From the NCBI GenBank assembly GCA_000004985.1, contig GG738865.1: a stretch of 64,000 bases of DNA. One strand, written 5' to 3'. The notes beneath the pieces were generated by a model. The model ran no database searches. It was not told where the DNA came from and was given only the letters and a program-made list of their open reading frames with translations. Positions 21,851 to 57,065 of the stretch are shown one piece after another; the first letter of the stretch is position 1, and each line of letters starts with the position of its first letter. The position numbers and the translations under genes are program-made. Source of the DNA: Naegleria gruberi. Its lineage: Eukaryota.

Positions 21851-24800
21851 ATGCCAGAGTTTATTACCACCGATAAACGATTGGATTGGCTCTATGAAAA
21901 AATAGCGGATGCCTTCCATATGGATAAGGAAACAATAGCTTCAGTGGGAAGATCAAAAGAAAATATAGGACTAATACAATCATTCCTTGATGGAAAAGGA
22001 GCAAAGTGTCTCCTTTGGTTCTTCTTCAGTCAGGGAGTGAATGATTTTTCTGATTTTGATGAAACCCTCACATCAAGTTCTTTAAACACCTACTCTAAAT
22101 CACAAACAGTTTTATCGTTCGCAACATCAGGAGAGTCCGATTCCGTAGCTTCACAAAAATCACCTAGAGGAAGTGACGGACCAGCCTTCTTAGTATCAAC
22201 AGATTTTAATGCAAACCCTCTTATTAGTAATGCTATTTGTATTTACTTTGTAAAGGAGGATGAAGCAACACAACTTTCAATGAATAATATAGAAGATATT
22301 GCAATGGGAGTAATATCGGGTAATAAGGGATTGATGAAAGAATTAAAAGATAGATTAGAAACATTATACATTCCTCAACTTTTAAAACAATCGGATTGGG
22401 GAGAACTAAGTAATTCAAGCAATTTAGATTCTAAAGAGGAAATTATGGAATTTTTGGAAAATGTTGACAAGTTTGTGCAGAATGTCAGTGAAGCAAAAAT
22501 TGCTTTGGAATCCAGTATTAGATTGGAAGCTCCAAAGAAGTTCTCAAATTTTGATTCAAAACCAAAATCTTTCCTCAAACAAGCTTTGAACAGGGTTGAT
22601 ATAATATCTTCATTTGAAGAGGCAGTCACAACGTGGATGGGAGACATTGATGCCTTATTGAATGAAGTTACTGCAGTCAGAGAAGAAGACGATGAAAGTG
22701 GTCCTGCTGCAGAGTTAGAATATTGGAAATCGAGAATGGCCAAATTCAACAGTATTACAGACCAATTAAGAAATAAGGTCTGCAAAACAGTTCTAAGTGT
22801 TTTAAAAGCTAAGAAATCGGCAGTGTTAGCTGGGTGGAAAAACATTGATATAAGAATTACAGATGCTGCTAACGAAGCAAAAGACAATGTAAAATACTTG
22901 TATATATTGGAAAAATTCAGTGAACCTCTCTACAAGAGTGATCCAGTTCAAATGATTAACACTCTTCCAGCACTCATTAATGCTATCAAAATGATGCAAA
23001 GGTAAGTTAGCTTTCTTGGAATTCAAATATTAATCTTTTCTAATAACAAATTTCTAAAAAATGTCGCAACACAATTTACCTTCAACAGTATCGCAAGGTA
23101 TTACAACACTTCCGAACGAATGACAGCACTTTTTGTTAAAATAACAAATCAAATGATTATTTGTTGTAAAAAGTACATTGTGAAGGATGGTCGTTTGTGG
23201 GAACAAGACACAGAAAAATTAATAGAAAAATTTAAATCATGCATTGATTTGAATGAAGCCTACCAACACTTTTATAGAAAAACTAAAAGCGAATTACAAA
23301 TGAATCCGTTTGGAAAACAATTTGATTTTAGTGAAAGTGCAATTTTCGGAAAGTTTGACCAATTTTGTTGGAGAATTCAAAAATTAATTGATTTATTTAC
23401 TACATTTAATCAATTTTCATATCTTCAGAAATGCACTATTGAAGGTCTGGATCCAATAATTAAACAATTCATCAAAATAATAACAGTGCTAAAGAGAAAG
23501 AAATATGACTTTTTGGATTATAGAAAATCTGTAAGTAATTAATAATAGCAATTTAATTAGAAATATATTTAAATAATACTAGGTATTTGATACTGATTAT
23601 ATTGAATTCAATAATGATATGACTAAATTGGAATTGGAGTTGGTGACCTTTATTAATAATAGTTTTGCTGAAGCTAGGACAACTAAACACTGTTTGGAAC
23701 TTCTTGAACAATTCAGAAAAGTGCTAAAACAAGACAACTTACAAAGGATTTTGGAGGATAAATTCCGATCGATATTCAGCAACTATTCTAGGGATGTGGA
23801 ACATATTAAAAATGTTTATGAGGAAACCAGCAGAAAACCAAATATTCCAAGAAACGCTCCTCCTGTTGCTGGTAATATTGCGTGGTCCAGACAGCTCATG
23901 AGGAGGTTAGAAGAGCCTATGGACTTATTTAAACAAACTCCTGCAATTTTGGAATATAAGGATTCGAAGAAAACTATCAAGCTTTACAACAAGATTGGAA
24001 AAGCATTACTGAGGTTTGAAGCATTATGGATGGAAAAATTCAATGATGCACTTGAAACTGCTAGAGAAGGTCTCTTGGCTACAGTTTTAGTAGAACAAAA
24101 CAATCAACTATATGTTAATTTTGATGGAGATCTTAAAATGTTAATGACAGAAGTTAAATATCTTCAGCTTATGGATATTGAAATTCCTGAAACAGCAATT
24201 TCTATTTTCAACCAACATGAGAGATTGTTGACTCTTGCTGAAAGACTTAGATTCATGGTCAAGGAATATTATCGAGTTATTTCTCTTCAAGACGATCTGT
24301 ACAAACCAATTTTGAAACCTCTTATTTTATCGTTGGATGAGAAAATCAGTGCTGGGAAATCTGCAATTACTTGGTTATCTGTAAGAATTGATAGATTTAT
24401 TGATGAAGTCATGAAGGCTATCTATTCATTGGAAGATACACTTGAAAAAGTGAACGATATTCTTTCGTATAGATTGAAGGCAAATTGTGATTCTATTATG
24501 AAAACCTTCCTAATTTCCTTCTCCTCGGATGTGAGGTCTATTCAACAATTTTTATCAGACAATGAAAAGTTTGCCAAACAAATGGCTATTGAAATTGATA
24601 TTAAGAATCAAGAAATAGAATCAGCAGCCTCAGACCTTATTGCTATAATTACACACAAATATTCTGAGGAAGAAAAGATGGGAGTAGCTAGAGAGTGTAA
24701 AGTATTCAAGAATCATTTCGAAGAGAGAATGCTTGACTCGGTATCTACTTGCCTTAGAGCATCAGTTAAACATTTGAAAGATAGAATCAGTCAAGACAAG

Positions 24801-37628: not shown

Positions 37629-39641
37629 TCAATAGTTTAACAGATTATTAGCCGTTTGACTTCGTTTTTTGGAAGCAGCAAGATTGTTAATTCTTGGTTG
37701 AGTCACAGCTGGTTCAACCTTCTTGCTTAGTACTGCCAATTCATCTTGGTTCTTTACACTTTTACCCTTCTCTAACACAAAGAATAGAACATTTTTATCC
37801 AGAACCAATCTGGACATGGATTTGAGTAATAGCTTTTGAAGATCCAAAAACTTGGTTGTAATCAGATCATATGTTAATTGGGTCTTTTGTTCCTTATCTT
37901 GTACACCTTCTTCCGTAAGCGTCAATTCACCAAAATGTTTACCTAGATTAGGAATGCAACAGATTGAAAAATCTGATAGGGCTTTTTCATAAGTTTCCCT
38001 CAATTGTTTTGTATAATTAGCCGAGTTCATATCAGTACTAATGATTTGTTGCAATTTTTCGTATTCTTTTTTGGAGCTTTCACTAATTGAATCAAATGTT
38101 TGCTTCATTCTAAATACTGATCCATTTCTAATGGCAGAAGCTATAGCATAGAGAGCTCCATAATTTCCCACATTAGCACAGCACATTGCCAAGTTAATTA
38201 AATATTCCAAAACAGCTACTCTTCTTTCCAGTTGTTCTTCCTGTACAATCAAACTGGCAAACCATAGTGAGTATGTGTTGAAAAAATCAATATTGTCAAT
38301 AATATTTGGACATTGATACTTTTTCCTACTCTTTGTCCAATTGGCTCCAAATAATTCTTGAGGCTCAATCCTCAAAAACAATCTTCCAAACAAGTAGGAG
38401 AGATGCGAAACAAATGATTTGGTTTCTATCTGAGTGATACATTCAATCAGTTTGCTTGAACGACTCATTTTCTGTTGGATTGTTCTTTCCACTGCTGTCA
38501 ACATTTGTGAATATGAGAAGGTTGAGTTTGTTCGGGAAACAAACTTTTCAAGATCGAAATTATCGCCTAGGGTTTGGGAAATACGTTTCAATTTCCCTTC
38601 GTTACTTCTAATGAATGTTCTTAATGTACATGTAAGTTTAGTGTAGGCTTGAACTCCCTCTAGATCAAATTTCGTATAGTAGAGGTAGTACTTCTGAAGC
38701 CAATGTTTAAGTGCTCGATAGGCATTGGCTTTTGTTTCTGTTACTTTATCATCTGATGAGGACAGCCAAGAAGAAAGGCAGGTGAAAAACTGACCTGATG
38801 ATATTCCCATATTTTGATACATTAAGCAAATCTTATCAATTGGTTTTAAATTGTCAGATGTTGCAGCATTAATATATCTCAATACAGTTTCAGTATGAAT
38901 AGGCTTGGATAATTCCAATTCTAATGAATCAAGATTTGACAAATCCAGTGTATCTTCATTGATTAATCCAAGTTTTTCATTGATGATTGCAGAATTTGTT
39001 TTGATTGCAGCTGATAATAGTACATTCTCCAAATCAAAGTTACTTCTCAAGACTTTCAACTCTAGATTTGTTGATGGATTTTTAACCTTCTCGAAATGAG
39101 AAGTAAACATTGTTCTATGGTAAGGAAATTCAGTGATTGATAATTGTTCCAATTCCTTTTCGGTTTTACCAATATATTGTGTTACTAATTCTTGATCCAC
39201 ATTCGATTCAAGTTCCTTAGATACAGAAAATTGGTTTTTAACTGGCGTAAATCCCTCCAATTCGAGTTGTTCTCTGTGTTTTTCCATACGAAGAATTTCA
39301 GCACTCTTACTTAAACCCTTCTCACGTAAATACTTTTCAAAAAGTAAGAGTAATATACTTCTCCGTTCCTCATCAACTTCCGATAATTTCTTCTTACTTC
39401 CTCCCTTCTGACTTAATAGTTGCTGTTCAGCTTTAATTTTCAGAGAGACCAACGATTCAAACTCTTCCAAAGCTTGTCCAGAAACCCTCACTTCCTCATC
39501 AATTTCTGTTAGATGTTCATGTGAATTTCTTCCTTGTTGCTGATGAGCATTTCCACTCCTCGACACTGTTGCCGAGGAGCAATTATTATCACTCTTTTTA
39601 TCGGGATGATTTCCCGTCAATGGTGATTGTGCTTGGACCAT
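37629..39641 (-). CDS. Ras guanine-nucleotide exchange factor (CDC25-homology RasGEF domain protein, 670 aa).
   Basis: The C-terminal catalytic domain has RasGEF signatures: NYGALYAIASAIRNGSVFRMKQTF, ICCIPNLGKHFGELTLTEEG (compare PCIPYLGxYLTDLTFIEEG). An upstream REM-like helical region and an N-terminal Gln/His-rich low-complexity segment precede it. Start context TAAAAAAATG. Its stop is only 19 bp from the FARSA stop (convergent). Confidence 0.8.
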   Translation of the reverse strand: MVQAQSPLTGNHPDKKSDNNCSSATVSRSGNAHQQQGRNSHEHLTEIDEEVRVSGQALEEFESLVSLKIKAEQQLLSQKGGSKKKLSEVDEERRSILLLLFEKYLREKGLSKSAEILRMEKHREQLELEGFTPVKNQFSVSKELESNVDQELVTQYIGKTEKELEQLSITEFPYHRTMFTSHFEKVKNPSTNLELKVLRSNFDLENVLLSAAIKTNSAIINEKLGLINEDTLDLSNLDSLELELSKPIHTETVLRYINAATSDNLKPIDKICLMYQNMGISSGQFFTCLSSWLSSSDDKVTETKANAYRALKHWLQKYYLYYTKFDLEGVQAYTKLTCTLRTFIRSNEGKLKRISQTLGDNFDLEKFVSRTNSTFSYSQMLTAVERTIQQKMSRSSKLIECITQIETKSFVSHLSYLFGRLFLRIEPQELFGANWTKSRKKYQCPNIIDNIDFFNTYSLWFASLIVQEEQLERRVAVLEYLINLAMCCANVGNYGALYAIASAIRNGSVFRMKQTFDSISESSKKEYEKLQQIISTDMNSANYTKQLRETYEKALSDFSICCIPNLGKHFGELTLTEEGVQDKEQKTQLTYDLITTKFLDLQKLLLKSMSRLVLDKNVLFFVLEKGKSVKNQDELAVLSKKVEPAVTQPRINNLAASKKRSQTANNLLNY

Positions 39642-39767
39642 TTTTTTAAGGGAGAATACTAAGGAACATGTGGAGTGAGTGGTAAATCCAAATACTCTAG
39701 CTTTCTTAAAGGGAGAGATTCTGAAAGTGTATTGTGGGAGGATAATGAAGAGAGAGTGGATGAGAAT

Positions 39768-40475
39768 TTATTGAACAAATACCAACCATCCTAAGAAGAT
39801 ATAGTACAGAATGACAGGGTACATGCTGAGAAGTTTTCTATTCTTCTTAACGCTGTGTGTCAAGACCAATGTTGAGGTTATGCAACACCACACCACACAA
39901 CACAAGACAATAAAGAATCGAATAGTGAATGATTGGAGGAAAATGAATGCAATACTACATAACACTAATGGGAATACACAATATCCCAAAACACACACAC
40001 TTTGGAAAAAGCTAATTGTTCCTCCTAATAATTGTCCATTCAATGTAAGAATACCACTTCCAAGCCAAATAATTACAAAAACACCTCCAAAGGCAGCTCC
40101 TTTTTGTGATTCTTTGGCACTAAATCCTAAAGTAAAAGCAAGAAGAATACACAAAAGTAAAGGACCCCACAAATCCCAATTTTTCAATTCTCTATGAATT
40201 CTTTGCTCATCGTTAACAGGAACTAAAACAAGAGCGATCTTTCTTCCGATATTGGTCAAATCTCTCATGATCGTTTTTATAACAGGTTCATCAATTGTAT
40301 CCGATGTATCTTCATAATCATCAAAAAATCGATTACCATTTGTTGTTGTTGTATTTGTTGGTTGTTGTGTTTGATCCTCAGAGCCTAAAAGTGGGTTATG
40401 TTGAATATCCAATTCGTTTTGATGTCCTCCTGATGATGAGAATGGATCATCCTCCTGCATAAAAGCTTGAGACAT
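39768..40475 (-). CDS. Yip1-domain family membrane protein (YIPF6/Yip4-like, 235 aa).
   Basis: A hydrophilic N-terminus is followed by five hydrophobic helices. The motif DLTNIGRKIALVLVP...ELKNWDLWGPLLLC matches the conserved Yip1-family core (NIGRK...DLxxWDLWGPL). Confidence 0.7.
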   Translation of the reverse strand: MSQAFMQEDDPFSSSGGHQNELDIQHNPLLGSEDQTQQPTNTTTTNGNRFFDDYEDTSDTIDEPVIKTIMRDLTNIGRKIALVLVPVNDEQRIHRELKNWDLWGPLLLCILLAFTLGFSAKESQKGAAFGGVFVIIWLGSGILTLNGQLLGGTISFFQSVCVLGYCVFPLVLCSIAFIFLQSFTIRFFIVLCCVVWCCITSTLVLTHSVKKNRKLLSMYPVILYYIFLGWLVFVQ

Positions 40476-40679: not shown

Positions 40680-43600
40680 ATGTACAGTGGTTCGCTTCCT
40701 CCTCACAAGATTGTCTATTTCGAGTCGAAGAGAAAAGTAACTGCCTATCCGTGGGGAATTACTAGTGGAGGTTCTTCTGGTAGTAGAGATCCATTGCAGT
40801 CTTTACGAGCAAGAATGGATTTGTTGAAGAGTCCGATCTTGGATTTGGAACTCTTCTCATGGAATGGTGCTGAGGTAGGTGCAGATTGTTGGATTCATCA
40901 ATTAACTTGATATTTAAAAAGGCTATGGAATATGAAAAAGCGGAACAAGCTAGGAAAAAGAAATATGCATCGTGTTTGCAATTAGTCAAACATATTTCTG
41001 GTTTACCAACAATTTCGGATGAGGATTTAAAAAACCCTGATTGGAGTTGTGAAAATGTAGAGCTGGTATTGTTGGAAAATGGGTTATTGGTAAAGGAAAA
41101 TGCAGTGAGTACGGTAGTGCAATCTGCATTTGTTGATGATAAATTTGTGGATCAGTTTATTGACTTTATGATTGATGAGTGGAAGGATCCAACACCTTCG
41201 GAATTAATTTATACATTGGTTTTATTTAAATCCAACAAAATTTTGAATAATTTATTGAAGAGAAGACACATAATGAGGATTTGTTATTTTGTCTTGACTT
41301 GCGAAACAACCCTAGATAATATTCAATTAGCTCTCCAACAATTTTTGGAGATGTATTACAGCATTTCTATCAATGTACTTTGTTCAATTCTTCATGATGA
41401 GCTCAGAAGGTTCAAAGATTTTAAACGTAATAATTATGATTTTGCAATAGAAATGAAATGTTTGGAATTAATTCTAGTGTTGCGAGTGAAATATCCAAGT
41501 GAGAGTATTGATTCCACACTTCAATCAATCCTCGTTTATTTATTAAGATTGGGCAATCAACAAGTTTCTAAAAAACTTTGCACTAGAGCTGTTGTGGCTC
41601 TGAAAGAAATGAAAGCCAAATCAAAAGAATCGTTCGGCGCTGTAAAAAAAGCTTTTGAAACAAAGTCAATTTCAACTAAAGTGGCTGGTACCCTTGCTGA
41701 ATATTGCCAAATAACGAATACAGAGAAATATTTGGAATCAAAGATTGATGAAAAGAAGGAGCTAGGAGAAAAGGCTATTGGAACTGGTACTGATGTTGAG
41801 GATTTTATTCAAGACATTGATGTAGATCCATCTATTTATTCTATTGATGAAATGAAAAAGCATTTGGATGCTACCATTCTCAAAAATGCAACTCCCTATA
41901 TCCACTCCCAATTCATCAAGAAGCACTATGGTACTATACACCACCAAGAAGTTGAGGAGGAAAAGGAATTTCAATATTTGGCCAAAGCTATTATTCGAGT
42001 ATGTTCATGTCTAATTTTTTACTTTTTAATAACACAGTTAATTTGAAACTAACAGTTCAGAAATTATGGCACTAGAAAGATGGCACTTCTTTCCAATAAG
42101 ATGATGTACGACAATATTGATACAAGTGATTTGAAGGATTTCTCAACCCAGACTTTCAAAAGAAACCAATCATCTGACTATTTTAATTATCTAGTTCAAG
42201 ATCTTGCACCAATAATGGAATATCTAAATAGAGAGAAAATGTCACTCGGATATGATGCCATGTACATTCTTGGTGTTTGTTGTGAATATAGAGGAATGGT
42301 TGTGGAAAAGTTTTCACACAATTCATGGTGCATCAAACCAATTTATACTTATCTTATTGATAGTGGTATCTTTCAAAGAATTGAGGAGATTATTTTGAAA
42401 CATCTGAAAGGTCCACCAAGAGAACATGAAGATGATCGTATTGTCAGATTACAATACATTTGTGAAGCAATACGACTGGCTTCTGAACTATTTAATTCAA
42501 TGAAGAATAATAGAGAAATTAGCAGAGTTTCTCACATTTTGGAAACTTCTAAATTCTTTGAATACTTAATTTATTGCTTGTATGAATTTAGGGAAGAGGA
42601 AATTATGCTCAAGACCATTGAACCTTGTTTTGCATATGCTGCAGAATGTAGACAGGAAGTAGGTATATGTCTCATCTATAAAAAGTACCTGCTGGCCCAA
42701 ATCACCCAAATGTTTAACTATGCCATCCTCCTGCCTGAAACAACAAGTGATGAAAAGGTTGATTTAACCACAACCATGACTGTAATTATTAGAACACTGT
42801 ATGACATTGCCAAACCAACTGCATCTAAGGTCAATGGATCCCTTTTAAAGGGTCAGAGAAGATTACTAGCACCAATGCTTGGTTGTGGAATTTTTTCCAA
42901 ATTGGCTTCATTTCTCAAAGAAAAACAAGGAATGCTAACAGGATTTGCTGTCTCAGCCATGAACGATGACAGAGATCCACGATACCACTGGATTGCAGAA
43001 CTCGTTACTATCATGTCTTATTATTCGAGATATCCACCAATGAGAAAATGCTTTTATGAAAACAATTATGAAATTTTCACAATTTTACTATCCAAAGTAA
43101 TATTCTCACTTAATGAGGTTTTCAAGAGCAAATCTAAAAATCAGAATAGAAAGCTTCACTTCCCTAATGTTTCTGGCTCTTCCTTCCTTAATGGGTTGTC
43201 TCTTGTGAATCGTTTGTTGTGGGACCGTGAGACTAGGAAATTCATGAGCGCAAATGAAAAGAACAGATCATCTGTTAATGGATCTACTAAGCTGGAAGAC
43301 TTATGTTTTTATTGGATTAATTATTTTGTACAGAGAGTGAAAAATTCAGAAACACTAACTCAAAGTGATTTACTTGTTTGGGGAAGATCCTATTTCCTCT
43401 TGTCTAGTTTAATGATAGAAGAAGATTTCCGTTCATACCTTGCAACCAATACTCAGATTGTGGAATTACTCATGGATACAATAAGTATCAAAGCTAGGCG
43501 ATTAACTACTGATGTAAAGAACTCTTCCTGTAAATGCATAATGATATTATTGAAGGAACCAAAGGCAGCTGAAAAAATGGAGGTTGACAAGATTTTGAAA

Positions 43601-44392
43601 TTTGTCAACTCTGAATTCAAAAACGAAACAACAACACGACTCATCGCTCCGGAGAATGAAATTGAAACAAATGTACTCCTAGGTCTGTTGTATGATATGT
43701 TTGAAAGTCGAATTGGAGAGGATGCAAAACAACTCATCAAGGCCAAATATCCTCTATTAGCTCCTCAAATCAAGGAAATTGGCAAGTGCAACACTTGTGG
43801 AAAAGGCTCTAGTTCAGAATCATCCTTAAAGCGTTGCTCTGCCTGTAATTCTGTAAGATATTGCAGTGTTGGTATGTTATTTTTATTGTATTTAATCTTC
43901 GATTCATTAACAATACTTTTCAATACATTTGTGGAAATAGAATGTCAGAAAAAGGATTGGAAAAATCATAAGGAAAAATGTAAAAAGATACAGGAAGAAT
44001 CGAAACAAACAATAGCAACAGCGCTACAAAAAGTCTACTCTGCAGACAAGTTGAAAACTAAGGGAAATAACGCCTACAAAGAGAATGACTTTAAGAGAGC
44101 TATCAATTACTATGGTCGTGCTCTCTTGCAAGAAGATGCAAAAGATATGAAACACATTCTCAATTTGAACATTGCACAGAGCTACTTTATGATTCATGAC
44201 TATGAACAGAGTATGAAATATGCTGATTTGGCTTTGGAAATTGATCCATCCTACATCAAAGCCATTCACAGAAAGGCAATCTGTTTGAAAATGCTCAACC
44301 GAAACAGTGAGGCACTATCGGTGGCAAACAAAGGACTTTCACTATCACCATCAGAAAAACAATTACAGGATTTGGTTGCTTCACTCAAATAA
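40680..44392 (+). CDS. MYND zinc-finger + TPR-repeat protein, about 1179 aa. Model: join(40680..40874, 40922..41998, 42056..43871, 43941..44392); introns 40875..40921 (47 nt), 41999..42055 (57 nt) and 43872..43940 (69 nt).
   Basis: Three listed ORFs are linked by GTAGGT...AAAAG, GTATGT...CTAACAG and GTATGT...AAATAG introns, all phase-consistent (0, 0, 1). Removing the third intron restores a canonical MYND finger, CNTCGKGSSSESSLKRCSACNSVRYCSVECQKKDWKNHKEKC. The C-terminus has at least three TPR repeats (KTKGNNAYKENDFKRAINYYGRALL..., AQSYFMIHDYEQSMKYADLALEIDP, IKAIHRKAICLKMLNRNSEAL). The first exon starts at CAAAAAAAATG. The first intron is the least certain; an alternative start is ATG 40925. 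Confidence 0.65.
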
Positions 44393-44460
44393 AACCAACC
44401 ACCACTATTCTGTCCGACCAGACCATACTTTACAAGATAACACAGGTCAACCTGAAAAAA

Positions 44461-45609
44461 ATGTCAACACCAAAATTCTTGTTGATAATCACAGCTTTTC
44501 TTTTATTCCAATCAACTGTCCAATTATCACACAGTAGAATATCACTGAACGATGGGATCAAGAAACCAGCATCACTCTCCAATAATTTTCTCTGCTCCGA
44601 TAATGAAACACTCGATATGCAATCCGATGCTTTCCAATGGAGAAAGTCAGAGAATCGTTTGCTGAGTTCCTACTATAGAGAGTGGTGGTTTTTTGCCACC
44701 TATGATCCCAAGGCAGATGTTGGCTTCTGTATGGGATACAATGTACAAGATCCGCTCAGAACATTCAACAAGGAAAGATCATCAATGGCTGGAATGATAT
44801 GGCCATCTGTCCAGAAACAGCAGAAGGTCATTGATGTGGAGGATTACTTTACTCTCGATGATTTTAAAGCCAATGAACATAACGCCAGTATGCAAATTAC
44901 TCCAAACAATTACATTCAAGTATTGGATAGTGAAAATTATGTAATTGTTGGCTCTTCACATAATGTCAAGTGGTGGCTTCAATTCACACAAACTTGCTAT
45001 GCCTGTCGAGAGGTTATTCAAGTTCCTGAAGTGATTCAGTTGGATTGGATATCATATATGCCTGCTGCAAAAGTTAAGGGAATCATTCAGATTGATGGTA
45101 GAAATATTTCCATTGATACAATTGGTTATCACGATCATAATTATGGTAGTTGGCCAGCCTCACTCTTTGATTGGATTTGGTCACAATTTAATCATGCAGA
45201 GAGTGATTTGGCTATTGTGACTGGCTCTTACAAATTGCCTCTCACTTCAGAATCTGTTGGATATGCATTCATTCGATTCAGAGGGAAGAGAATTAAAATT
45301 GGAACCTTGTGTGCAAATTCATTTGAGCTCATTCCTCTCGAGTGGAAGAATTTCAATGGAAAGATGTATTGTGTTCGTGCACAAGTGAAAACTCACAACA
45401 AGGATTGGAAACTTGAAATGGAATATCGTGCTCAAGTAAGTGATAGAAATCCAGGAGATAGAGGATTGGGACTTTTCGTTTATGAGCAAATTTCACACTT
45501 TTCAGTTCAACTCTATGAGAAAGTTTCGAATGAATGGAAAGTGGCAGCCAACGTGACTGGATATGGATTTAGTGAATGGACCGATTTGAAATATTTTAAT
45601 AAGCCATAA
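44461..45609 (+). CDS. Secreted hypothetical protein with an N-terminal signal peptide (382 aa); no confident family assignment.
   Basis: Single ORF with start context GAAAAAAATG. The N-terminus MSTPKFLLIITAFLLFQSTVQLSHS looks like a cleavable signal peptide. The mature part is Trp/Tyr-rich and not low-complexity (GYHDHNYGSWPASLFDWIW). It starts only 68 bp after the upstream gene's stop. Confidence 0.5.
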   Translation: MSTPKFLLIITAFLLFQSTVQLSHSRISLNDGIKKPASLSNNFLCSDNETLDMQSDAFQWRKSENRLLSSYYREWWFFATYDPKADVGFCMGYNVQDPLRTFNKERSSMAGMIWPSVQKQQKVIDVEDYFTLDDFKANEHNASMQITPNNYIQVLDSENYVIVGSSHNVKWWLQFTQTCYACREVIQVPEVIQLDWISYMPAAKVKGIIQIDGRNISIDTIGYHDHNYGSWPASLFDWIWSQFNHAESDLAIVTGSYKLPLTSESVGYAFIRFRGKRIKIGTLCANSFELIPLEWKNFNGKMYCVRAQVKTHNKDWKLEMEYRAQVSDRNPGDRGLGLFVYEQISHFSVQLYEKVSNEWKVAANVTGYGFSEWTDLKYFNKP

Positions 45610-46330: not shown

Positions 46331-47791
46331 ATGATAGAGCAACAAATGATTGAGTCGTTTAGTCAATACTTTCAGAATATAATGATCATACTGTTGGGAT
46401 GTTATATTGGATGGATTGTCTTTTCAAATGTGATTCGTAAATATATCTACTCAATGGTTGATAGTAAAGTGTACGAGATGGGAAAATCATTCACAGAACA
46501 TTTAATTAATCAAACGAGGGGTTTTGAGTGCAAAGTCTACTCGTGTAAAACTAAGGACGGTTGTAAATTACAACTCTTTAGAATTATTTATAAGGGAAAT
46601 GATGCTGATCATTCGAATAATGTTTCATTGAGTCCTCAATCAACCATTAGATATTGTCCATCGGCACAACAAGTTGAGGAATTGTTAAGAGAGAGTGAAC
46701 AACTTTCAAAGAAACCAGTTGTGGTGTTGCAACATGGATTGTTAGAGGCCATGACTGTCTTTGTGCTACATGAAGATTCCATCGCATTCCAATTGGCCAA
46801 GAAGGGTTTTGATGTTTGGTTGGTCAATAATAGAACCTCACTGTTTGGTCAACAACATCTGGTTTCCAGAATTCATGATGAAGTCGAATTTTGGAAATTC
46901 TCTATTGATGAAATTGCCAAATATGATATGCCAGCAATAATAGATTTTGTTAGAAACGCAACTTGCCAATCAAAGATTTGTTGGGTTGGAATGTCCCAAG
47001 GAGCTGGTCAACTCTTTGCTGCCCTCTCACAAACTGAGTATGCCCACTATAAGAATTATCTTTCTGCTATTGTTGGACTGTCGCCAGCATGTTTCTTGAA
47101 GAAGAATCCAGAATCTACCTTTCTTAGACTCTTAATTAAGACTCCCTCATTCATTTTCGGAAGGAGAGAATTCATGCTTATTATTCTTATTGGACAACTG
47201 TTATTACCTGCCTCATTCCTTGCCAAGGGAGGTGAATATGCTCTCAAACTATTGAATATTCAACAAAAACCACTCCCAAACCATCCCCTGAAAGGTGAAT
47301 GGTTTAAGAACATTCCACTGGGATGTACCTCTGTAAATAATGTGGTTCACTGGTTAAGGATGTTAAACATTGGAGGATGTTTGAGAAAATTCAATGGAAT
47401 TGAAAAGTATCCAATTGATGAAATGTTAGATAGATGGAGAGAGGTCTACCACTCCAATTTGAGTCATCAGCAACAAGATAAGAAGCAACAAGAATATGTG
47501 CCACCTCTCTTTGTCTTTTTGGGAGGAAAGGATAATGTAATTGACTATGAAGAGAGTATCAAACATTTTGGCTGTTGTGACTCTGTGTTGGTGACTGATG
47601 AAACAGGTGAACATCCACCCAAGAATATTTCAACATGTCCAGGAAGTTGTCCAGTGTCCAACAATGTTCGTTGCAAGATTCTATTCGATCCAGAGTATGG
47701 TCACACTGATTTCCTTTGGGCTGAACCAGATGCCAAACACCAAAGACATTATGATAAGGTTATTCAATTCTTGGAGGAACATGTTCAATAG
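46331..47791 (+). CDS. Alpha/beta-hydrolase of the acid (lysosomal/gastric) lipase family, with an N-terminal signal anchor (486 aa).
   Basis: KKPVVVLQHGLLEAMTVFVL...SIAFQLAKKGFDVWLVNNRTS matches the abhydro_lipase N-terminal signature (PVxFLQHGLL...LADAGYDVWLGNSRGN). The nucleophile elbow is GMSQG (GxSxG), and there is a hydrophobic N-terminal segment. Single exon. Confidence 0.75.
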   Translation: MIEQQMIESFSQYFQNIMIILLGCYIGWIVFSNVIRKYIYSMVDSKVYEMGKSFTEHLINQTRGFECKVYSCKTKDGCKLQLFRIIYKGNDADHSNNVSLSPQSTIRYCPSAQQVEELLRESEQLSKKPVVVLQHGLLEAMTVFVLHEDSIAFQLAKKGFDVWLVNNRTSLFGQQHLVSRIHDEVEFWKFSIDEIAKYDMPAIIDFVRNATCQSKICWVGMSQGAGQLFAALSQTEYAHYKNYLSAIVGLSPACFLKKNPESTFLRLLIKTPSFIFGRREFMLIILIGQLLLPASFLAKGGEYALKLLNIQQKPLPNHPLKGEWFKNIPLGCTSVNNVVHWLRMLNIGGCLRKFNGIEKYPIDEMLDRWREVYHSNLSHQQQDKKQQEYVPPLFVFLGGKDNVIDYEESIKHFGCCDSVLVTDETGEHPPKNISTCPGSCPVSNNVRCKILFDPEYGHTDFLWAEPDAKHQRHYDKVIQFLEEHVQ

Positions 47792-48086
47792 GAATGAATT
47801 ATTGTACAATTTCACCTTTTTAACAATGATACCTGGTACTTGTGTGACATTGGTTAATAGACACATTCCGAAGGCTGCTTTTAAGATACCTTCAATCCTC
47901 ATCATCATTCCAATGTTGTTTGTTGAAGAAAATGTTGTAGGTGTTATCCACTCACTTTGAAAAAACTCCATTAATTCACCATATGGACTGCAATAAATTT
48001 GGTTGGTGGATAGCTGTTAAATTAGATTCAATCAAAATTTTTAAAATAAAATTAAAAAATTTAAAAAATTGTTTGTTGAAAAAAAA

Positions 48087-50432: not shown

Positions 50433-50813
50433 ACTAATTGATAAAATACTTAATGTAAATAGAATTGGTTAGTTTTCTTTAATTTAATATTTGTATTAAC
50501 ATTTCCTTCAGGAAAAAGTTAACGAATACTTTGAAAAGGGCCGATTTATTCCAAGAATTTTATTTGCCATTTTTAGAAATTGGAAAACCTTAAGTTGACC
50601 GTAATTTGAAAACTTTTGAAACATTGGAAATTCCATGTTTTATTATTGTAATATGCTCCTTAAATTCCTTGTTAAGGTCTTACTGTAATCCTCAAACATT
50701 CAAACAGTACGATTCACAATTCCCAACAAACATTCTCTTCATTGTCCAATGTTGAACGGCCTTGCGGTTTGCACACACTTTTCTTGAAGAAAAAAATTAA
50801 CAACAAACTCAAC

Positions 50814-53800
50814 ATGAGGAGCAACCTTAATTGGCTTAATTGCTTACTGTTAACAGCCTTTGTGTTAGCGCTCTTTTCCTTTCACACGAAGGGTACTGTG
50901 CTAGAGTATTGCGATACAATGACAAATATTCCACCTCTTTGCTCGAATCAACAAAATCTAGGACATGCTGTTGATATAGAGTTGCCAGGTGGATATAGTG
51001 AAGTAGGAATGAATGTTACAACACAATTGGTTGGCTTTATCAATGACCAAAATGAAGATTTGTATCACTTGGTGAATGCTCCTACTTTGGTTGATAAATA
51101 CATTTCAAAACTTAAGAGGGTAAGCAAGAATGGTGCAGAGATTTGGACATTAGACATTCAAAGTGATTGCAGCACAAGTGCATCAGTAGTTAGTCAAACT
51201 CTTTCCTTTGCTTCGGATGGTACTATTGTGTTATCTGGTTGGATTATTACAAAGGAAAGAGCATGTTTTAGGGGTACAAAACTATCCTCAAAAACCTCTC
51301 AAAACAATAGAAAAGTTCCATTCATTGCCTTCGTATCATCAACTGGCTATGTGATTTCTGTAATTTCCTTAGAAAATGACTTCCCTGATGCATCAATTTC
51401 ACATGTTGATTTAGACCATTCCGACTCGAACAAACTCTATCTTATCATCAGAATGGATTCAAGATTATTGATTGCATGTTACAATGACGGTAGATTAATG
51501 TGGAACAATGTAATATCCTCTTGTGCAGATCCAAGTAAATGTCAGGCTGCAGGTTTGAGTTATTCACCATTTGGGAAAATTTTGGTCACACTTTATGAAA
51601 GTGATGGAACTAATTTCCAATTCGCTGCTCAAGGTTTCAATTTTGTTTCACACAAATCTGGAATCTACATAGCGACATTTAGCTCAGATGATGGTTTGTT
51701 CTCTTCTATTGATATGGTGTTCCACAGTACCTCAGTTAACATGGGAGCACCAAAGACAGTTTTGGATCGTTTAGGAAAATTACACCTACTGATTGCATGT
51801 GAGGCTAATTGCTACATAAGCGGTTCCATTGCAAATCCAGGTGTCTTCTTGTTGAGATATTACAATGGAGCTGTTGAAAAATTAAACAGATTCATTTCCC
51901 TTATATTATCCAAAATTAAGCTTCAAAGCCTTGCATTAGACAGAGATCTATCTATCTATGCAATTATTAATGGATTGACATCATTTTCAATAATTGATGA
52001 CACCGATGGCAGAGTATCAAATTTTCTTGATATTGGAGTTCTTTGTAAATTCAGATACTCAGATGGAAAGATTTTATGGTTACGAAAAATAGCTGACGAT
52101 CCAACTCTGGATTACTACCACGTAAGTCCTTCCAGCATAATGGTTAATAAGAAGGCCACTGTTGATGAAATTATTCCAACCATGTTCACATATCTCAGAG
52201 ATGGCACAAGAAGAACAGCCTGGATTGAATCATACACTGCTCGTTACGATACAACTGAATCATCATCTGCTAGAATAGGAGGATCTGGAGGATCAACAAC
52301 ACACACAACAAGTGACAAAGTTACTGCAATTCTTTTTGGAACCACTTCAGATTATGTTAGGGATATTGGATTTGAATTCAAATCTGTACCTGCTTTCCAA
52401 GGCGGGTTAGGAATTAGATATGCCATTGACAGTGATGAATATTTCACCTCGATTGACTATTGTGTTGGTGGTAATTCATATACCACAGTAGAATATATCA
52501 AATTCAACACAAACAAGAAGTCTTTTTCAAATGGTAAATGTCGTAGTTCCCTTCAAACTGAAAGCGTTCCAAAAGGTAAAGAACTTGTTGGTTTCACAGT
52601 CAACATAGGTATATATCTGGATTCAATCAAGTTTTACTATCGTAGCCCATATATTTGCATGACTGGCACAGAAGGGGACAAGTGTGACACCAATGTATGC
52701 TATGGTATTTCTTCCAAGTCCGCACTGAAATGTAGTGGTAAGGGTAATTGCGTTGGGCCTAATACTTGCTCATGTTATTTTGGATATTTTGGGTCTAATT
52801 GTGAACAGAAAACTACATGTTTTGGTATTGACTTTGATTCAAAAACAGTTTGTTCTGGAAATGGAAATTGTTATGGGCCGAATACTTGTCGGTGTAATGG
52901 TAGATATACTGGAAACCAATGTCAATACGCAACATGTAATGGAATAATTCAATCGGATAGCAAGGTGTGTTCAGGTCATGGATCATGTATTAAGGAAGAT
53001 ACATGTTCCTGCCAAGAGGGATATTCTGGTCCGTCATGTAGCACATATTCGTGTTCAGGAATTTTAAATTCTGATTCGAAAGCTTGTTCAACACATGGAG
53101 TTTGTTCAAGTTTAAATAATTGCACATGCTTAGTTGGTTATTTTGGTAGTACTTGTAACGAATTCGAGTGTGGGGGTATCAATGCCAAGTCTAATCTTAC
53201 CTGCACAGGAAGAGGAATTTGTTCTTCTTCAAATAATTGTAAATGTTTAGCCCCTAATTCTTATGGAGACAATTGTGAATCATGTAAGGAAGGGTATTAT
53301 GGAAGCAAATGTGAAAAATGGAATTGTAATGGTATTGAGAACACGTCGCCTGATGTATGTGGTGGTAGAGGACAATGTGTCGCTCCAAATCAATGTAAAT
53401 GTACTTCAACTGCCACTGGTTCATTTTGTGAACAATGTGTTACAGGTTATTTTGGACTTAAGTGCGGTAATTGGACATGTAATGGTATTGAAAACACAGC
53501 CACAAATGTTTGTAACCACAGAGGAAGTTGTATTGCATATGATAATTGTCAATGTTCTTCAAGATCTTATGGTTCCAGTTGTGAATCATGTGTTGGATTG
53601 TTTACTGGTGCTCTCTGTTCTGAATGTTCTGGACACCTCGAAGGAGATGAAGAATGTTTAAATTATGCTGTCACCGATCCAGAATACTATGCTTTTACTG
53701 ATGATAATAGGTTAGAATTTCTTCAATTTATAGTAATGTCAACAGGTATTGTGAATTCTACCGATTATGCTTGTAGCAAGTTGTTTACTAATCTAGAGAA

Positions 53801-56800
53801 TGAAATTGGTATAGGTTTGGAATGTACTGTTAGGAATGGCACAGTTTCTCCTTCTAATACTGTCAATAGAGCTTATTTAATTACTGTTAAAACTTTTCAA
53901 GGTACAATGAGTCCAAGTAAACCAATACATTTCAACATCTTTTGGGCAAATCCACAAAAAAAACCATCCTATACCACCCTTAACATTAGTGTAAAAGAGT
54001 TTTATACAAAGAATTCGATTGGTTTAGATTTGTATGCTGAGCAATATAGGGTGTAAACAGATGTTATGACACACAATTACGTTTACATTACTCGCAACCA
54101 GAACACCGATACACTTTCACATCCATTAAATGGAACATTACAAATTCAAATAATCTCCAAACTGTTCCTAAAATTGTGCAAGCTGTAGAAACTGCCAAAA
54201 ACAGTCTTGACTTGACTATTCCATTCGTACCAGAAATGCTCACTAATGAAACTCTAATTGTAACAGTGACTTTTGTATCTGCTTTTGGTCAACAAGCCGT
54301 AAAATCATTCCCACTTAAATTAAGTAAACCTTATCCTAAACCAAGTTCTACCATTCCTACTAGAACAGTTACCTTCCTTAGTTCAGAAGATGAGACTATT
54401 CCTCTTCGAGAATTCTATGAAAATCCTGAATGTTTAGATCAAGGAATCGTTCCATCCTTTTCCCTGTATCGCGGTTACTATGATGATTATTTTACTATGG
54501 ATCGTACTAGTTCACATTCGGTTATTCTTACCTCAGATTTAATTATTGTTAAATCTTTAACGTTTACAAATGAGGAAATACTGCCCATATGGTTTGGCAA
54601 TTCAGCAAGAATCCGGTTAGATGTTCGTTACCTTCCACCTATTCCAAAAATAGTCGAATCGATTGTTTATTATAACTTTATACAGCCAAGCATTACCATT
54701 GCTTGTAGGAGTCCTTATGGAGATTCATATTTTTACAGCAGCATCAGATATTCGTTGTTAGAGGATTCTTCCAAAATAGCGAATGGATACGCTTCCTCTG
54801 CAACTGTTCCAGTTAGAGTACTGAGTGCTGCTAATCCAGACTCTGCAGTATCGAGTGCTCTTTTCGAATTGACTTGTAGTGGGCCAAATAGGCTTGGAGA
54901 TACTTCCATTTCAAAATATGTGACATTTATTAAAGAACAACCTGCAAGTAGTACACCTCACCAGGATATTGTAAAATTCTTGCAGTTTCATTGAAGACTC
55001 CAAATGGAAGAAGTACAATACCTTATTCAGAAAATGATCAAACCTATAATCTTGAAGTGGTATCTTCAAGTAATGATTGCAAGTTAAGAGTTATCTTATC
55101 CAATCCAATCAGCTATAATTCTGTTGAATTATTATCAACTACACTTTCCAATACCATCAGCACTGTACCAGTAGTATTCAAACAGAGCACTCTCTCAAAG
55201 TTTACAATGGCAAAGAGTTCTACAACAATGTCTTTATATGCCGCTAATGATCTCTCTGTACAAGGTCAAAGTATTGAACTTCAAGGCAAATTTTTTACAA
55301 TAATTGACATGTGTTCAATTTCTCCATCCACCATTGAAATTGGAATAACCAAAGCAACACTTTCATGTACATCTGACCTTGTTACCACATCGACAAAGAT
55401 TGAGCTCTATCATGATGGACTCTTGGTTGGTAAATCTGCCAGTTTCCCAATTGACTTTGTAACATCAAGGTCAGGACAATCTTTTAAGGTTGTAATTTAT
55501 GACACACTTACTGGTGGTAAAGCTAGTGAAGATATACTCTTGTCAAAAGCCATTACGTTCAGTACTAAATCATTACTTACAAGTAGTTTCGTATCAAAAA
55601 TTGCAAGTCAAATGGCAATCATTTCACAATCGAATAGTGCCAGTTTTAAAGACATTTCCAGTAATAATAATTATATTGTTTCAATGATTAATAATATTGG
55701 AATAGCTACAGAGATTGTGCAAAAGGAAATCGCTTCATTGACTCCAAAAGCTTTGGATATGTCAATTACGGCAATTTCGAAAGACATGAAAGAGTCAAGT
55801 CCATCTCTAGGCTCGTTCTCAACCATGGTCAACCAGATAAAGGACTTGTCCAATCCTGAATATTTAACTGATTCAAATGTTGAGAAAACTACTCAAATTG
55901 TAAACGAATTTGTTTCATATACTCAAAGATTGACAAACTGGGATGATGGGATTTCTGCTTCGCTTTCTAATATTGTAACAAACATTGCTCCAAAGATATC
56001 TGAAACCACTACAATGTCCATGATTTCTAAAATTGCGTTTTCTACTATTTCCAAAAGTTCACAATTCACATTCACAACCACAAACTTTTTCCCAGATAAG
56101 AAACCTTCCAATTTGATTATTGTGAATGCAGTAAAGTCCAGTTACGTCTCCATGAACTCACTTTCGATTACATCCGAATCCAAAGTCCCACTAGTCTCAT
56201 TCCAATTGTCCAAACACAAGACAACAGCTCAAGCCAATGAAGAAATCATAGTTTCACACTCAGTTTTCAAATATCCATCATCAAAGCGATCCATTACAAC
56301 ACCTAAAAGAGATTTCATTTCCCAATTGAGTATTTCTTCAAAAAACATTTTGGAAGGAACTGCTTCATTCAATATTCCTCTCCCATCGTATGCTTCACCA
56401 ATTAGTCCTCTAATCAAACAAACTTTCAGATGTATTACTGTATACGACATGAAGGATTTCCAAGTTGAAACGTATTGTAAATACGCCAGCAATTCCAAAC
56501 AATATTTATCTGAATTTCAATCTGATTCAACAACTGTTGTAACATGTTCATGCGATTTGAATTATTTATCAAAGCAATCTCAATTTTCAATGATTGGTGT
56601 AACAGCTGAGTATTTGGAAGATGATTCTGCCTATAGAGCAGACCAAGATGCAAAGGTAGCAGCTGGTGTATCTGTTGCACTCATATTCGTTATTCTTTTT
56701 ATTGTTGGAATAGTTCTATTGGGTGTTGGAATTTCAGTCTTTTTGTATTTTAGAAAGAAGAAACAAATGCCACCTGCCCAATTCCCTGCCAATTCACAAC

Positions 56801-57009
56801 CATCGATTCAGTACACTACACAACCCTCAAGTAGCACCATCAATACCTCTACTCCTGATTTATTGGTTGCCTATTCTGTAAATGCTGATTTTGAATTGGG
56901 AACTGTAAATGCTGGTCAGCATTGGTCAGTTCCAAATCAAATCCATTTAGGTGCTATGGATGGTATCGAAAATGTGACAGCACAAAATATTCAACCAACT
57001 TCAATTTAG
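50814..57009 (+). CDS. Large type I membrane glycoprotein. The order is signal peptide, a roughly 600-aa N-terminal domain, at least 10 tandem tenascin/laminin-type EGF repeats, a long Ser/Thr-rich stalk, a single TM, then a Pro/Ser/Thr-rich cytoplasmic tail. The gene model is interrupted by two frame breaks (at about 54049..54053 and about 54973..54991) and would be about 2060 aa if continuous.
   Basis: ORF 50742..54056 has the real start at ATG 50814 (MRSNLNWLNCLLLTAFVLALFSF, a signal peptide) and repeated CxGxGxCxxPNxCxCxxGYxGxxC modules across 52650..53650. ORF 54176..54994 is open in its own frame from 54050, and ORF 54991..57009 ends with the TM helix VAAGVSVALIFVILFIVGIVLLGVGISVFLYF plus a tail. 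Only the first ORF has a signal peptide and only the last has a TM, so one gene is implied. Each junction is consistent with a single missing base in the sequence: the GGG run at 54049..54051 and the AAAA run at 54973..54976. Alternatively the first junction could be an intron at 54053..54204. Confidence 0.5.
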
Positions 57010-57065
57010 TGGTAAATGATTCAATATTGCGAACAGGTTATTAAAAAAATACCAATAAAATTGAT

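What the first reader, a model, noticed from the sequence alone, without database searches (positions are those of the whole stretch)
54040..54996. Two frame breaks inside the large EGF-repeat membrane-protein gene, each explained by one missing base in a homopolymer
ORF 50742..54056 (signal peptide + EGF repeats) ends at TAA 54054, but the next frame is open from 54050 and reads through without stops into ORF 54176..54994. The 150 nt between them translate into non-repetitive, protein-like sequence. Adding one G to the GGG run at 54049..54051 fuses the two frames. ORF 54176..54994 stops at TGA 54992, while ORF 54991..57009 (stalk, TM, tail) continues in a frame that is open only from 54952. 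Adding one A to AAAA at 54973..54976 fuses them as ...HQDIVKILAVSLKTPNGRS.... Both breaks are deletions of a single base relative to an intact reading frame. The same sign of shift is seen at the MCCA 5' end, in a separate finding. There are three possible explanations: systematic homopolymer under-calling in the assembly, a recently inactivated pseudogene, or programmed events. Intron alternatives exist (54053..54204, GTAAAC...AACAG, phase 2; a 26-nt micro-intron at 54971..54996), but they are weaker.
Basis: seen in the sequence. Interest (0 to 1): 0.5.

Follow-up and report, generated by a model that had tools for sequence, protein, structure and literature searches.

The report
One Naegleria gene, two frame breaks
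Three neighbouring "genes" annotated in the amoeba Naegleria gruberi are pieces of one large lectin/EGF membrane-protein gene whose reading frame is broken twice by tiny insertions or deletions, which makes it an ordinary young pseudogene or a draft-sequence error rather than introns or programmed recoding.

Summary
The window is Naegleria gruberi nuclear DNA. The three ORFs are the RefSeq models NAEGRDRAFT_67006, 67007 and 67008. Frame 2 opens at 54050, 4 nt before the TAA at 54054. Frame 3 opens at 54952, 40 nt before the TGA at 54992. Two intact N. gruberi paralogues, NAEGRDRAFT_73856 (2122 aa) and 74706 (2003 aa), have the same jacalin+EGF architecture. Each aligns colinearly across all three ORFs, so this was one gene of about 2,089 codons. 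The 42 unannotated codons at 54050-54175 are conserved (NRC..YSQPE..W), which rules out the 152-nt intron. The paralogues carry a conserved C-K-[IV]-L motif that the window encodes in frame 3 from TGT 54970. Break 2 therefore lies at about 54967-54969, not in the AAAA run. This also argues against the 26-nt and 38-nt introns. Real introns in the window are 42-87 nt, AT-rich and start GT[ATG][AT]GT. I found no slippery site and no downstream RNA structure. Each break is a net -1 nt. A 2-nt tandem duplication (GT to GTGT, AT to ATAT) fits as well as a 1-nt deletion. I could not decide between a genuine recent lesion (about 0.45) and a Sanger draft consensus error (about 0.4). Interest is low.

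The parts
50814..54053 (+). 5' segment of the gene, in window frame 3. It holds the ATG and signal peptide (50814-50894), an N-terminal domain, a jacalin-like lectin domain (52275-52637) and EGF-like repeats (52683-53636). It is annotated as NAEGRDRAFT_67006, but that model starts only at the internal ATG 50919.
   Evidence: It is 100% identical to XP_002677684, and Pfam reports EGF_2 at 2.4e-19 and Jacalin at 2.7e-10.
54050..54056 (+). Frame break 1. The frame can be restored only within 54050-54053. Two repairs work: adding a G to the GGG run at 54049-51, or removing one GT of GTGT at 54051-54. The premature stop is TAA 54054-56.
   Evidence: TAG 54047-49 closes frame 2 upstream.
54050..54969 (+). 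Middle segment, in frame 2. Codons 54050-54175 are unannotated but conserved. The rest is NAEGRDRAFT_67007, whose model starts at an internal Met.
   Evidence: The window sequence NRCYDTQLRLHYSQPEHRYTFTSIKWNIT aligns with P0004 NRCFETKIKAYYSQPEFGTFQSLTWNLT.
54952..54972 (+). Frame break 2. The possible range is 54952-54991. The best position is 54967-54969, just 5' of the conserved Cys codon TGT 54970-72. Adding 1 nt there, or removing one AT of ATAT at 54966-69, restores the frame. The premature stop is TGA 54992-94.
   Evidence: Both paralogue tblastn alignments in frame 1 start exactly at 54970.
54970..57009 (+). 3' segment, in frame 1. It holds a Ser/Thr-rich extracellular stalk with a second conserved Cys at 55078, a transmembrane helix (56656-56751), a cytoplasmic tail ending ...PTSI, and the stop TAG 57007-09. 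It is annotated as NAEGRDRAFT_67008 from an internal Met.

Best explanation
The interval 50814-57009 is a single gene. It is a third paralogue of the N. gruberi-specific type I membrane proteins NAEGRDRAFT_73856 and NAEGRDRAFT_74706. Their layout is signal peptide, N-terminal domain, jacalin-like lectin, EGF repeats, a long Ser/Thr-rich stalk, a transmembrane helix and a short tail.

In the deposited sequence the reading frame is broken twice, at 54050-54053 and at about 54967-54969. Each break is a micro-indel with a net effect of -1 nt: either a 1-nt deletion in a short run or a 2-nt tandem duplication.

I take these to be genuine, very recent replication-slippage lesions. That would make this copy a young pseudogene, or a null haplotype of the heterozygous diploid laboratory strain NEG-M.

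Inferred consequences: translation from ATG 50814 would stop at TAA 54054. At most it would give a secreted, anchorless 1,080-aa lectin-EGF fragment. The two downstream ORFs would be untranslated relics, and the gene models 67007 and 67008 would be annotation artefacts.

Shown here: one ancestral gene, the positions of the breaks, and the absence of splicing or recoding signals. Inferred only: that the lesions exist in the DNA of the organism rather than only in the consensus. This is barely more likely than the error rival.
For: - One gene. An exhaustive HMMER search found only five proteins: the three fragments at 100% identity and two full-length N. gruberi paralogues. Each paralogue matched in one stretch across both junctions (names). 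tblastn shows the paralogue alignments stepping from frame 3 to frame 2 to frame 1. The Pfam architecture is the same.
- Break 1. Scores are 227/107 against 85/56 for the intron model (alignment).
- Break 2. The best repair lies before the Cys codon (score 144 against 114-121 for the AAAA repair).
- Favouring real lesions. The reference is Sanger-sequenced, so it is not prone to homopolymer errors, and the strain is a heterozygous diploid (PMC9928731). Two lesions sit in one member of a redundant, lineage-restricted family. About 50 kb of other coding sequence in the window is uninterrupted, including a 12-kb ORF. Both sites carry short tandem repeats typical of slippage (GGG/GTGT and ATAT/TT).
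Against: - Apart from the two breaks, nothing has decayed. There is no in-frame stop in 2,089 codons.
- Identity to P0004 is as high downstream of the breaks (30.5% and 36.6%) as upstream (29.6% and 33.0%).
- The C-terminal ...PT[ST]I motif is retained.
- A third frame break of the same sign lies only 8 kb away, in the otherwise intact and conserved MCCA gene. This is what scattered consensus errors in a draft would look like.
- I could reach no independent reads, second assembly or transcript.
Confidence: 0.45

Rival explanations
1. Draft-assembly consensus errors. The organism has an intact 2,089-codon gene, and the 8x Sanger whole-genome-shotgun consensus mis-called one base (or two) at each site. 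The three gene models would then be artefacts of those errors.
For: - The ORFs are pristine apart from the two breaks.
- A third frame break of the same sign sits between the mitochondrial presequence and the catalytic body of the conserved MCCA gene, 8 kb away. A real lesion is less expected there.
- All three breaks lie within the last 10 kb of the window.
- Three frameshifts and no nonsense disruption in the window fits the way errors tend to show up.
- Three indels in 64 kb is within the range of a roughly Q40-43 draft (this rate is from my own knowledge).
Against: - Sanger chemistry does not systematically under-call runs of 2-4 nt.
- The breaks are 0.9 kb and 7.8 kb apart, so a single low-coverage patch does not explain them.
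- If the lesions are 2-nt duplications, they are an unusual kind of base-calling error.
- The other 54 kb of the window shows no frame break.
Confidence: 0.4
2. Spliceosomal introns bridge the frames: 54053-54204 (152 nt, GTAAAC...AACAG) at the first site, and either 54971-54996 (26 nt) or 54948-54985 (38 nt, GTAGTA...TTGCAG) at the second.
For: GT...AG pairs of length 3n+2 exist at these positions.
Against: - The 152-nt interval encodes residues conserved in both paralogues (NRC, YSQPE, W). The alignment score falls from 227/107 to 85/56 when it is removed.
- Both short introns would delete the conserved C-K-[IV]-L...SL motif, and they score lowest (62/96).
- Seven well-supported introns in the window are 42-87 nt, 13-27% GC and start GT[ATG][AT]GT, with G at +5 and T at +6 in every case. 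An eighth, doubtful candidate (47666-47729, GTTCGT, 45% GC) is probably not an intron.
- The three candidates here start GTAAAC, GTAAAA and GTAGTA, have coding-like GC (31-39%) and measure 152, 26 and 38 nt.
Confidence: 0.02
3. Programmed recoding. A -1 (or +2) ribosomal frameshift, or the insertion of one nucleotide during or after transcription, restores the full-length protein. The MCCA break would be a third example.
For: There are three breaks of the same sign in 64 kb. All lie in otherwise intact ORFs, and one of these is an enzyme presumed to be needed.
Against: - No X XXY YYZ heptamer lies in either permitted window (read from the sequence: T AGG GTG at site 1, and nothing closer than A AAA TTC at site 2).
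- The downstream 85-nt stretches fold no better than shuffled sequence (z = -0.30 and +1.75).
- Break 2 lies at least 22 nt upstream of the stop codon, so it is not Euplotes-like shifting at a stop.
- All three sites share no motif. The first two share TGTAAA, with a chance expectation of about 0.2 by my own estimate, and the MCCA window lacks it.
- The homopolymers are far too short for transcriptional slippage.
- Both paralogues are encoded without a shift.
Confidence: 0.03
4. Three independent genes, as currently annotated (NAEGRDRAFT_67006, 67007 and 67008), perhaps produced by gene fission.
For: RefSeq and JGI carry three separate models.
Against: - Models 67007 and 67008 start at internal Met residues, with no signal peptide or promoter spacer.
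- The ORFs overlap or abut: 4 nt and 40 nt of shared open frame.
- Conserved coding sequence continues through 54050-54175, which no model covers.
- Paralogues are colinear across all three.
Confidence: 0.02

Closest known systems
NAEGRDRAFT_73856 (XP_002671087, 2122 aa) and NAEGRDRAFT_74706 (XP_002670243, 2003 aa), uncharacterised N. gruberi proteins
   Same: Both have the same jacalin + teneurin-type EGF architecture. Each aligns colinearly along the whole length, including the stalk, the conserved Cys pair, the transmembrane helix and, for 73856, the C-terminal PT[ST]I motif. For the post-EGF part the HMMER matches are 34% identity (E = 2e-102) and 23% identity (E = 1e-11).
   Different: The paralogues are encoded as single uninterrupted proteins, whereas the window copy has two frame breaks. 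The window copy also lacks one 43-aa EGF unit, after fused-protein residue 674 (counted from nt 50742), and some loop residues.
Frameshifted duplicate-gene pseudogene, or a heterozygous null allele in a clonal diploid
   Same: It is a member of a small, lineage-specific paralogous family, it is disrupted by slippage-type micro-indels, and intact paralogues remain.
   Different: No further decay is visible: there are no nonsense codons and no loss of similarity downstream. If the lesions are real, they are very young. Whether they exist in the DNA is untested.
Split gene models caused by indel errors in draft whole-genome-shotgun assemblies
   Same: Consecutive same-strand models abut in different frames. 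Their products together equal one homologue, and the sequence is otherwise intact.
   Different: The assembly is Sanger-based and the runs are only 2-4 nt long. No read-level data were available to show an error.
Programmed -1 ribosomal frameshifting (viral or retrotransposon type) and Euplotes frameshifting at stop codons
   Same: Only the formal need for a -1 (or +2) shift to read through.
   Different: The slippery heptamer, the stimulatory structure, the stop-codon position for break 2 and conservation in paralogues were all tested and not met.

Membership tests
N. gruberi jacalin-EGF-stalk membrane protein family (NAEGRDRAFT_73856 / 74706) | Jacalin-like lectin domain followed by a block of teneurin-type EGF repeats | tested here: met
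   Pfam finds Jacalin and EGF_2/EGF_TEN in the window ORF1 and in both paralogues.
N. gruberi jacalin-EGF-stalk membrane protein family (NAEGRDRAFT_73856 / 74706) | Colinear homology of the post-EGF stalk, the transmembrane helix and the tail | tested here: met
   In HMMER each paralogue matches in one stretch: query 1-1003 against P0004 962-1981 (E = 2e-102), and query 59-1048 against P0005 (E = 1e-11).
N. gruberi jacalin-EGF-stalk membrane protein family (NAEGRDRAFT_73856 / 74706) | An uninterrupted reading frame that encodes the whole protein | tested here: not met
   There are two frame breaks. The locus is therefore a disrupted member, or a mis-sequenced one.
Frameshift pseudogene | Disabling lesions relative to intact homologues | tested here: met
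Frameshift pseudogene | The lesions are present in the organism's DNA, not only in the consensus | not testable with these tools
   I could reach no reads, second assembly or allelic scaffold.
Frameshift pseudogene | Signs of relaxed constraint downstream of the first lesion | tested here: not met
   There are no stops in about 1,000 downstream codons, and identity to paralogues is undiminished. This fits only a very recent inactivation.
Naegleria spliceosomal intron | 5' splice site GT[ATG][AT]GT, AT-rich body, length about 40-90 nt (as seen in this window) | tested here: not met
   The candidates start GTAAAC, GTAAAA and GTAGTA, have 31-39% GC and measure 152, 26 and 38 nt. Seven well-supported introns start GT[ATG][AT]GT, have 13-27% GC and measure 42-87 nt.
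Naegleria spliceosomal intron | The removed sequence is non-coding, with no homology to paralogue protein sequence | tested here: not met
   The removed segments contain the conserved NRC..YSQPE..W residues and the C-K-[IV]-L motif.
Programmed -1 ribosomal frameshift | Slippery heptamer X XXY YYZ at the shift site | tested here: not met
   Read directly. Site 1 offers only T AGG GTG. The site 2 window has no conforming heptamer.
Programmed -1 ribosomal frameshift | A stable stimulatory structure 5-9 nt downstream | tested here: not met
   Minimum free energies are -5.9 and -6.8 kcal/mol, with z = -0.30 and +1.75 against shuffles.
Draft-assembly indel error | Disagreement between the consensus and the underlying or independent reads | not testable with these tools
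   Independent Nanopore, Illumina and RNA-seq data exist (PMC12695648), but I could not query them here.

The most novel reading that the evidence does not exclude
The deposited sequence is correct, and N. gruberi nevertheless makes the full-length proteins. It would do so by an undescribed recoding step, either -1/+2 frameshifting or single-nucleotide insertion into the transcript. That step would act at both sites in this gene and at the same-sign break between the presequence and the body of MCCA (about 62770-62911, minus strand).
Probability: 0.03. Interest if true: 0.8.

Novelty: new member of a known kind. Interest (0 to 1): 0.15.

Why it matters
The main value is to annotation. Three RefSeq/JGI 'predicted proteins' (XP_002677684, XP_002677685 and XP_002677686) should be merged into one locus, flagged either as a pseudogene or as a corrected 2,089-aa protein. 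The 5' end should be extended to the signal peptide at ATG 50814.

If the lesions are real, this is a very young loss-of-function allele in a Naegleria-specific lectin/EGF surface-receptor family, in a laboratory strain grown axenically for a long time. That would be a small data point on relaxed selection or on heterozygous null alleles in a mostly clonal diploid.

If they are errors, then together with the MCCA break they give a rough local estimate of the indel error rate in the 2010 draft: about 3 per 64 kb. That matters to anyone using those gene models.

Tried and rejected
- **Exact-product look-ups.** Look-ups for four proteins (the window's 710-aa ORF on the minus strand, P0001, P0003 and P0004) found nothing. 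N. gruberi is apparently not in that index.
- **Word-indexed protein search.** It returned only P0001 in one search and nothing in another, although the 100%-identical proteins P0002 and P0003 are in the collection. I treated it as uninformative.
- **Metagenome scans.** A scan for orthologous DNA and a scan for an exact pattern spanning break 1 with or without the extra base both found nothing.
- **Paralogues inside the window.** There are none.
- **Literature.** No paper mentions the locus tags, and none discusses frameshifts or error rates in the N. gruberi draft. The 2010 genome paper is not held.
- **Deletion coinciding with break 1.** MAFFT put a 14-17-aa gap, shared against both paralogues, exactly at break 1. 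That suggested one larger out-of-frame deletion. A pairwise alignment reduced the gap to 6 aa and moved the YRGV match, and a 9-aa insertion lies just upstream. I dropped the idea as alignment-dependent.
- **Other apparent frame breaks in the window.** 42053-44392 / 44311-45609 is two genes, because a new signal peptide starts at ATG 44461. 46331-47791 / 47595-47960 is a complete lipase ORF plus a chance open frame. The single in-frame TAA at 39768-70 separates a Yip1 gene from a RasGEF gene.
- **Shared TGTAAA at both breaks.** I judged this a coincidence. The expectation is about 0.2 by my own estimate, and the MCCA window lacks it.
Full report
**Origin of the window.** The window has 33-38% GC throughout. 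It is densely packed with long ORFs, including one uninterrupted ORF of 4,038 codons. The first ORF of the finding is 100% identical to 'predicted protein [Naegleria gruberi]'. An exhaustive HMMER search and a cluster look-up identify the three ORFs as consecutive RefSeq models:
- NAEGRDRAFT_67006 (XP_002677684, 1045 aa, ending ...AEQYRV)
- NAEGRDRAFT_67007 (XP_002677685, 252 aa, ending ...FLQFH)
- NAEGRDRAFT_67008 (XP_002677686, 593 aa)

The NEG-M reference genome is a Sanger assembly of 40.9 Mb at 35% GC, and the organism is described as a heterozygous diploid (PMC9928731).

**Checking the observation.**
- The GGG run is at 54049-51 and the TAA at 54054-56. A TAG at 54047-49 means frame 2 is open only from 54050.
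- The AAAA run is at 54973-76 and the TGA at 54992-94. A TAG at 54949-51 means frame 3 is open only from 54952.
- A systematic scan shows the successive open stretches overlapping by 4 nt and 40 nt, each with the same frame change.
- With a stop probability of 0.073 per codon, open frames of 314 and 685 codons cannot be chance.

**What the locus is.**
- *Search result.* I searched the post-EGF part of the fused protein against 1.84 billion cluster representatives. Exactly five proteins came back: the three fragments, and two full-length N. gruberi paralogues. These are NAEGRDRAFT_73856 (P0004, 2122 aa, 34% identity, E = 2e-102) and NAEGRDRAFT_74706 (P0005, 2003 aa, 23%, E = 1e-11). Each matched in one stretch that spans both junctions.
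- *Shared architecture and colinearity.* Both paralogues have the jacalin + teneurin-type EGF architecture of ORF1. In tblastn, the P0004 alignment steps from frame 3 (to 54002) to frame 2 (54053-54721) to frame 1 (from 54970).
- *Inferred protein.* The locus is therefore one gene for a type I membrane protein:
  - signal peptide from ATG 50814
  - N-terminal domain
  - jacalin-like lectin (52275-52637)
  - EGF repeats (52683-53636)
  - a Ser/Thr-rich stalk of about 1,000 aa
  - a transmembrane helix (56656-56751)
  - a tail ending PTSI

  The family was detected only in N. gruberi.

**Break 1.** The 42 codons at 54050-54175 are covered by no gene model. They align to conserved paralogue sequence: NRCYDTQLRLHYSQPEHRYTFTSIKWNIT in the window, NRCFETKIKAYYSQPEFGTFQSLTWNLT in P0004, and HKCFSTTFKITKWSQYEKRETYRSINWTIV in P0005. 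Splicing out 54053-54204 drops those scores to 85 and 56. The 152-nt intron is therefore refuted, and the shift is confined to 54050-54053.

**Break 2.** Both paralogues carry a conserved C-K-[IV]-L motif (CKVLGASL and CKILSFRI), followed about 35 residues later by a second conserved Cys.
- The window encodes CKILAVSL in frame 3, starting at TGT 54970, whereas frame 2 reads VKFLQFH*.
- Both paralogue tblastn alignments in that frame start exactly at 54970.
- I scanned every possible single-base repair position. The best is 54967-54969 (combined score 144). Any repair upstream of the Cys codon scores 131-144.
- Over a longer segment, the model scores against P0004/P0005 were 72/120 for the repair before the Cys, 63/110 for the AAAA repair, and 62/96 for both the 26-nt intron and a 38-nt alternative I found (54948-54985, GTAGTA...TTGCAG).

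Both micro-introns would delete conserved residues.

**The nature of the lesions.** The frames fix only the net effect, which is -1 nt (equivalently +2 nt). Removing one GT of GTGT (54051-54) and one AT of ATAT (54966-69) also gives an intact ORF, here 2,063 codons counted from ATG 50814, reading ...AEQYRVNRC... and ...TPHQDCKILAVSL.... Its paralogue scores cannot be told apart from those of the 1-nt repairs (225/106 against 228/106, and 79/118 against 72/120). 'One missing base in a homopolymer' is one possibility, not a demonstrated fact.

**Introns in this genome.** Seven well-supported introns in the window are 42-87 nt long and 13-27% GC. Their 5' ends are GTAAGT, GTATGT, GTTAGT or GTGAGT, so G is at +5 and T at +6 in every case. 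They lie at 1988-2074(-), 8858-8901, 17194-17235(-), 23002-23088, 23531-23582, 41999-42055 and 63623-63666. For example, the first restores the ABC-transporter motif ...LILDEPTT|GLD.... An eighth candidate at 47666-47729 (GTTCGT, 45% GC) is probably not an intron, because the lipase ORF there is already complete. The candidates at the breaks fail on donor sequence, composition and length.

**Recoding.**
- Neither permitted window contains an X XXY YYZ heptamer (read).
- The 85-nt stretches downstream fold no better than shuffled sequence (z = -0.30 and +1.75).
- Break 2 is at least 22 nt upstream of the stop, so it is not shifting at a stop codon.
- The paralogues need no shift.
- Runs of 2-4 nt are too short for transcriptional slippage (established knowledge).

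I rate recoding at about 3%.

**Real lesion or consensus error.** This is the one question I could not settle.

For an error:
- The gene is pristine apart from the two breaks. There are no nonsense codons, and identity to P0004 is 30.5% and 36.6% downstream against 29.6% and 33.0% upstream.
- The only other frame break in the window is of the same sign. It lies 8 kb away, between a textbook mitochondrial presequence (MLLRNSLKQSKSIRK..., a 99-codon open frame) and the body of the conserved MCCA gene.
- The window has three frameshifts but no nonsense disruption.

For a real lesion:
- The assembly is Sanger-based, so it is not prone to errors at runs of 2-4 nt.
- The breaks are too far apart for one low-coverage patch.
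- About 50 kb of other coding sequence in the window is clean.
- Two hits fall in one member of a redundant, lineage-specific family.
- The local sequence has slippage-prone tandem repeats.
- The strain is a long-cultured heterozygous diploid in which null alleles can persist.

My rough weighing gives 0.45 for a genuine young pseudogene or null allele and 0.40 for an error. All attempts to reach independent DNA or RNA evidence failed. A Nanopore+Illumina re-assembly and RNA-seq for N. gruberi do exist (PMC12695648) and would decide the matter quickly.

**Verdict.** The second break is mislocated by a few bases, and homopolymer under-calling is not a good description of a Sanger assembly. This is an ordinary phenomenon, either a frameshifted paralogue or a split gene model. 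It has practical value for annotation and low scientific surprise, so I score interest at 0.15.

Noticed in passing
window 62764-63063 (-) and 60773-62911 (-): The MCCA gene has a frame break. A 99-codon open frame starts with a typical mitochondrial presequence (MLLRNSLKQSKSIRKNVGAAL...). It overlaps the main biotin-carboxylase ORF by 145 nt in a different frame, with the same sign of shift as the two breaks studied here. The shift probably lies near the A-rich stretch just before ...PLFDKILIANRGE. It is the only other frame break in the window.
   Followed up: partly
window 50814-50919 (+): The RefSeq model NAEGRDRAFT_67006 starts at the internal ATG 50919 (MTNIPP...). The in-frame ATG at 50814 encodes a clear signal peptide (MRSNLNWLNCLLLTAFVLALFSFHTKG), and the paralogue P0005 has a signal peptide at the equivalent place. 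The annotated N-terminus is probably truncated. P0004 also seems to lack its signal peptide.
   Followed up: partly
window 39641-39770 (-), 44392-44461 (+), 57009-57066: Intergenic spacers are extremely short. 68 nt separate the stop of a TPR/zf-MYND gene from the ATG of the next gene. 56 nt separate two convergent stops. A Yip1 gene and a RasGEF gene are separated by a single in-frame TAA plus 42 open codons, which mimics a readthrough or nonsense site but is two genes.
   Followed up: yes
window, about 52764 (after fused-protein residue 674, numbered from nt 50742): Relative to both paralogues, the window gene lacks one whole EGF unit (43 aa) in frame. This is variation in repeat number within the family.
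   Followed up: no
window 56990-57009 and the C-terminus of P0004: The extreme C-terminus is conserved between the window gene (...QPTSI*) and NAEGRDRAFT_73856 (...KPTTI*). This may be a short cytoplasmic sorting motif or PDZ-like binding motif. P0005 ends differently.
   Followed up: no
(tool behaviour): The word-indexed protein search failed to return the 100%-identical N. gruberi proteins XP_002677685 and XP_002677686, although they are in the collection. Negative results from that search are therefore unreliable for this organism.
   Followed up: partly
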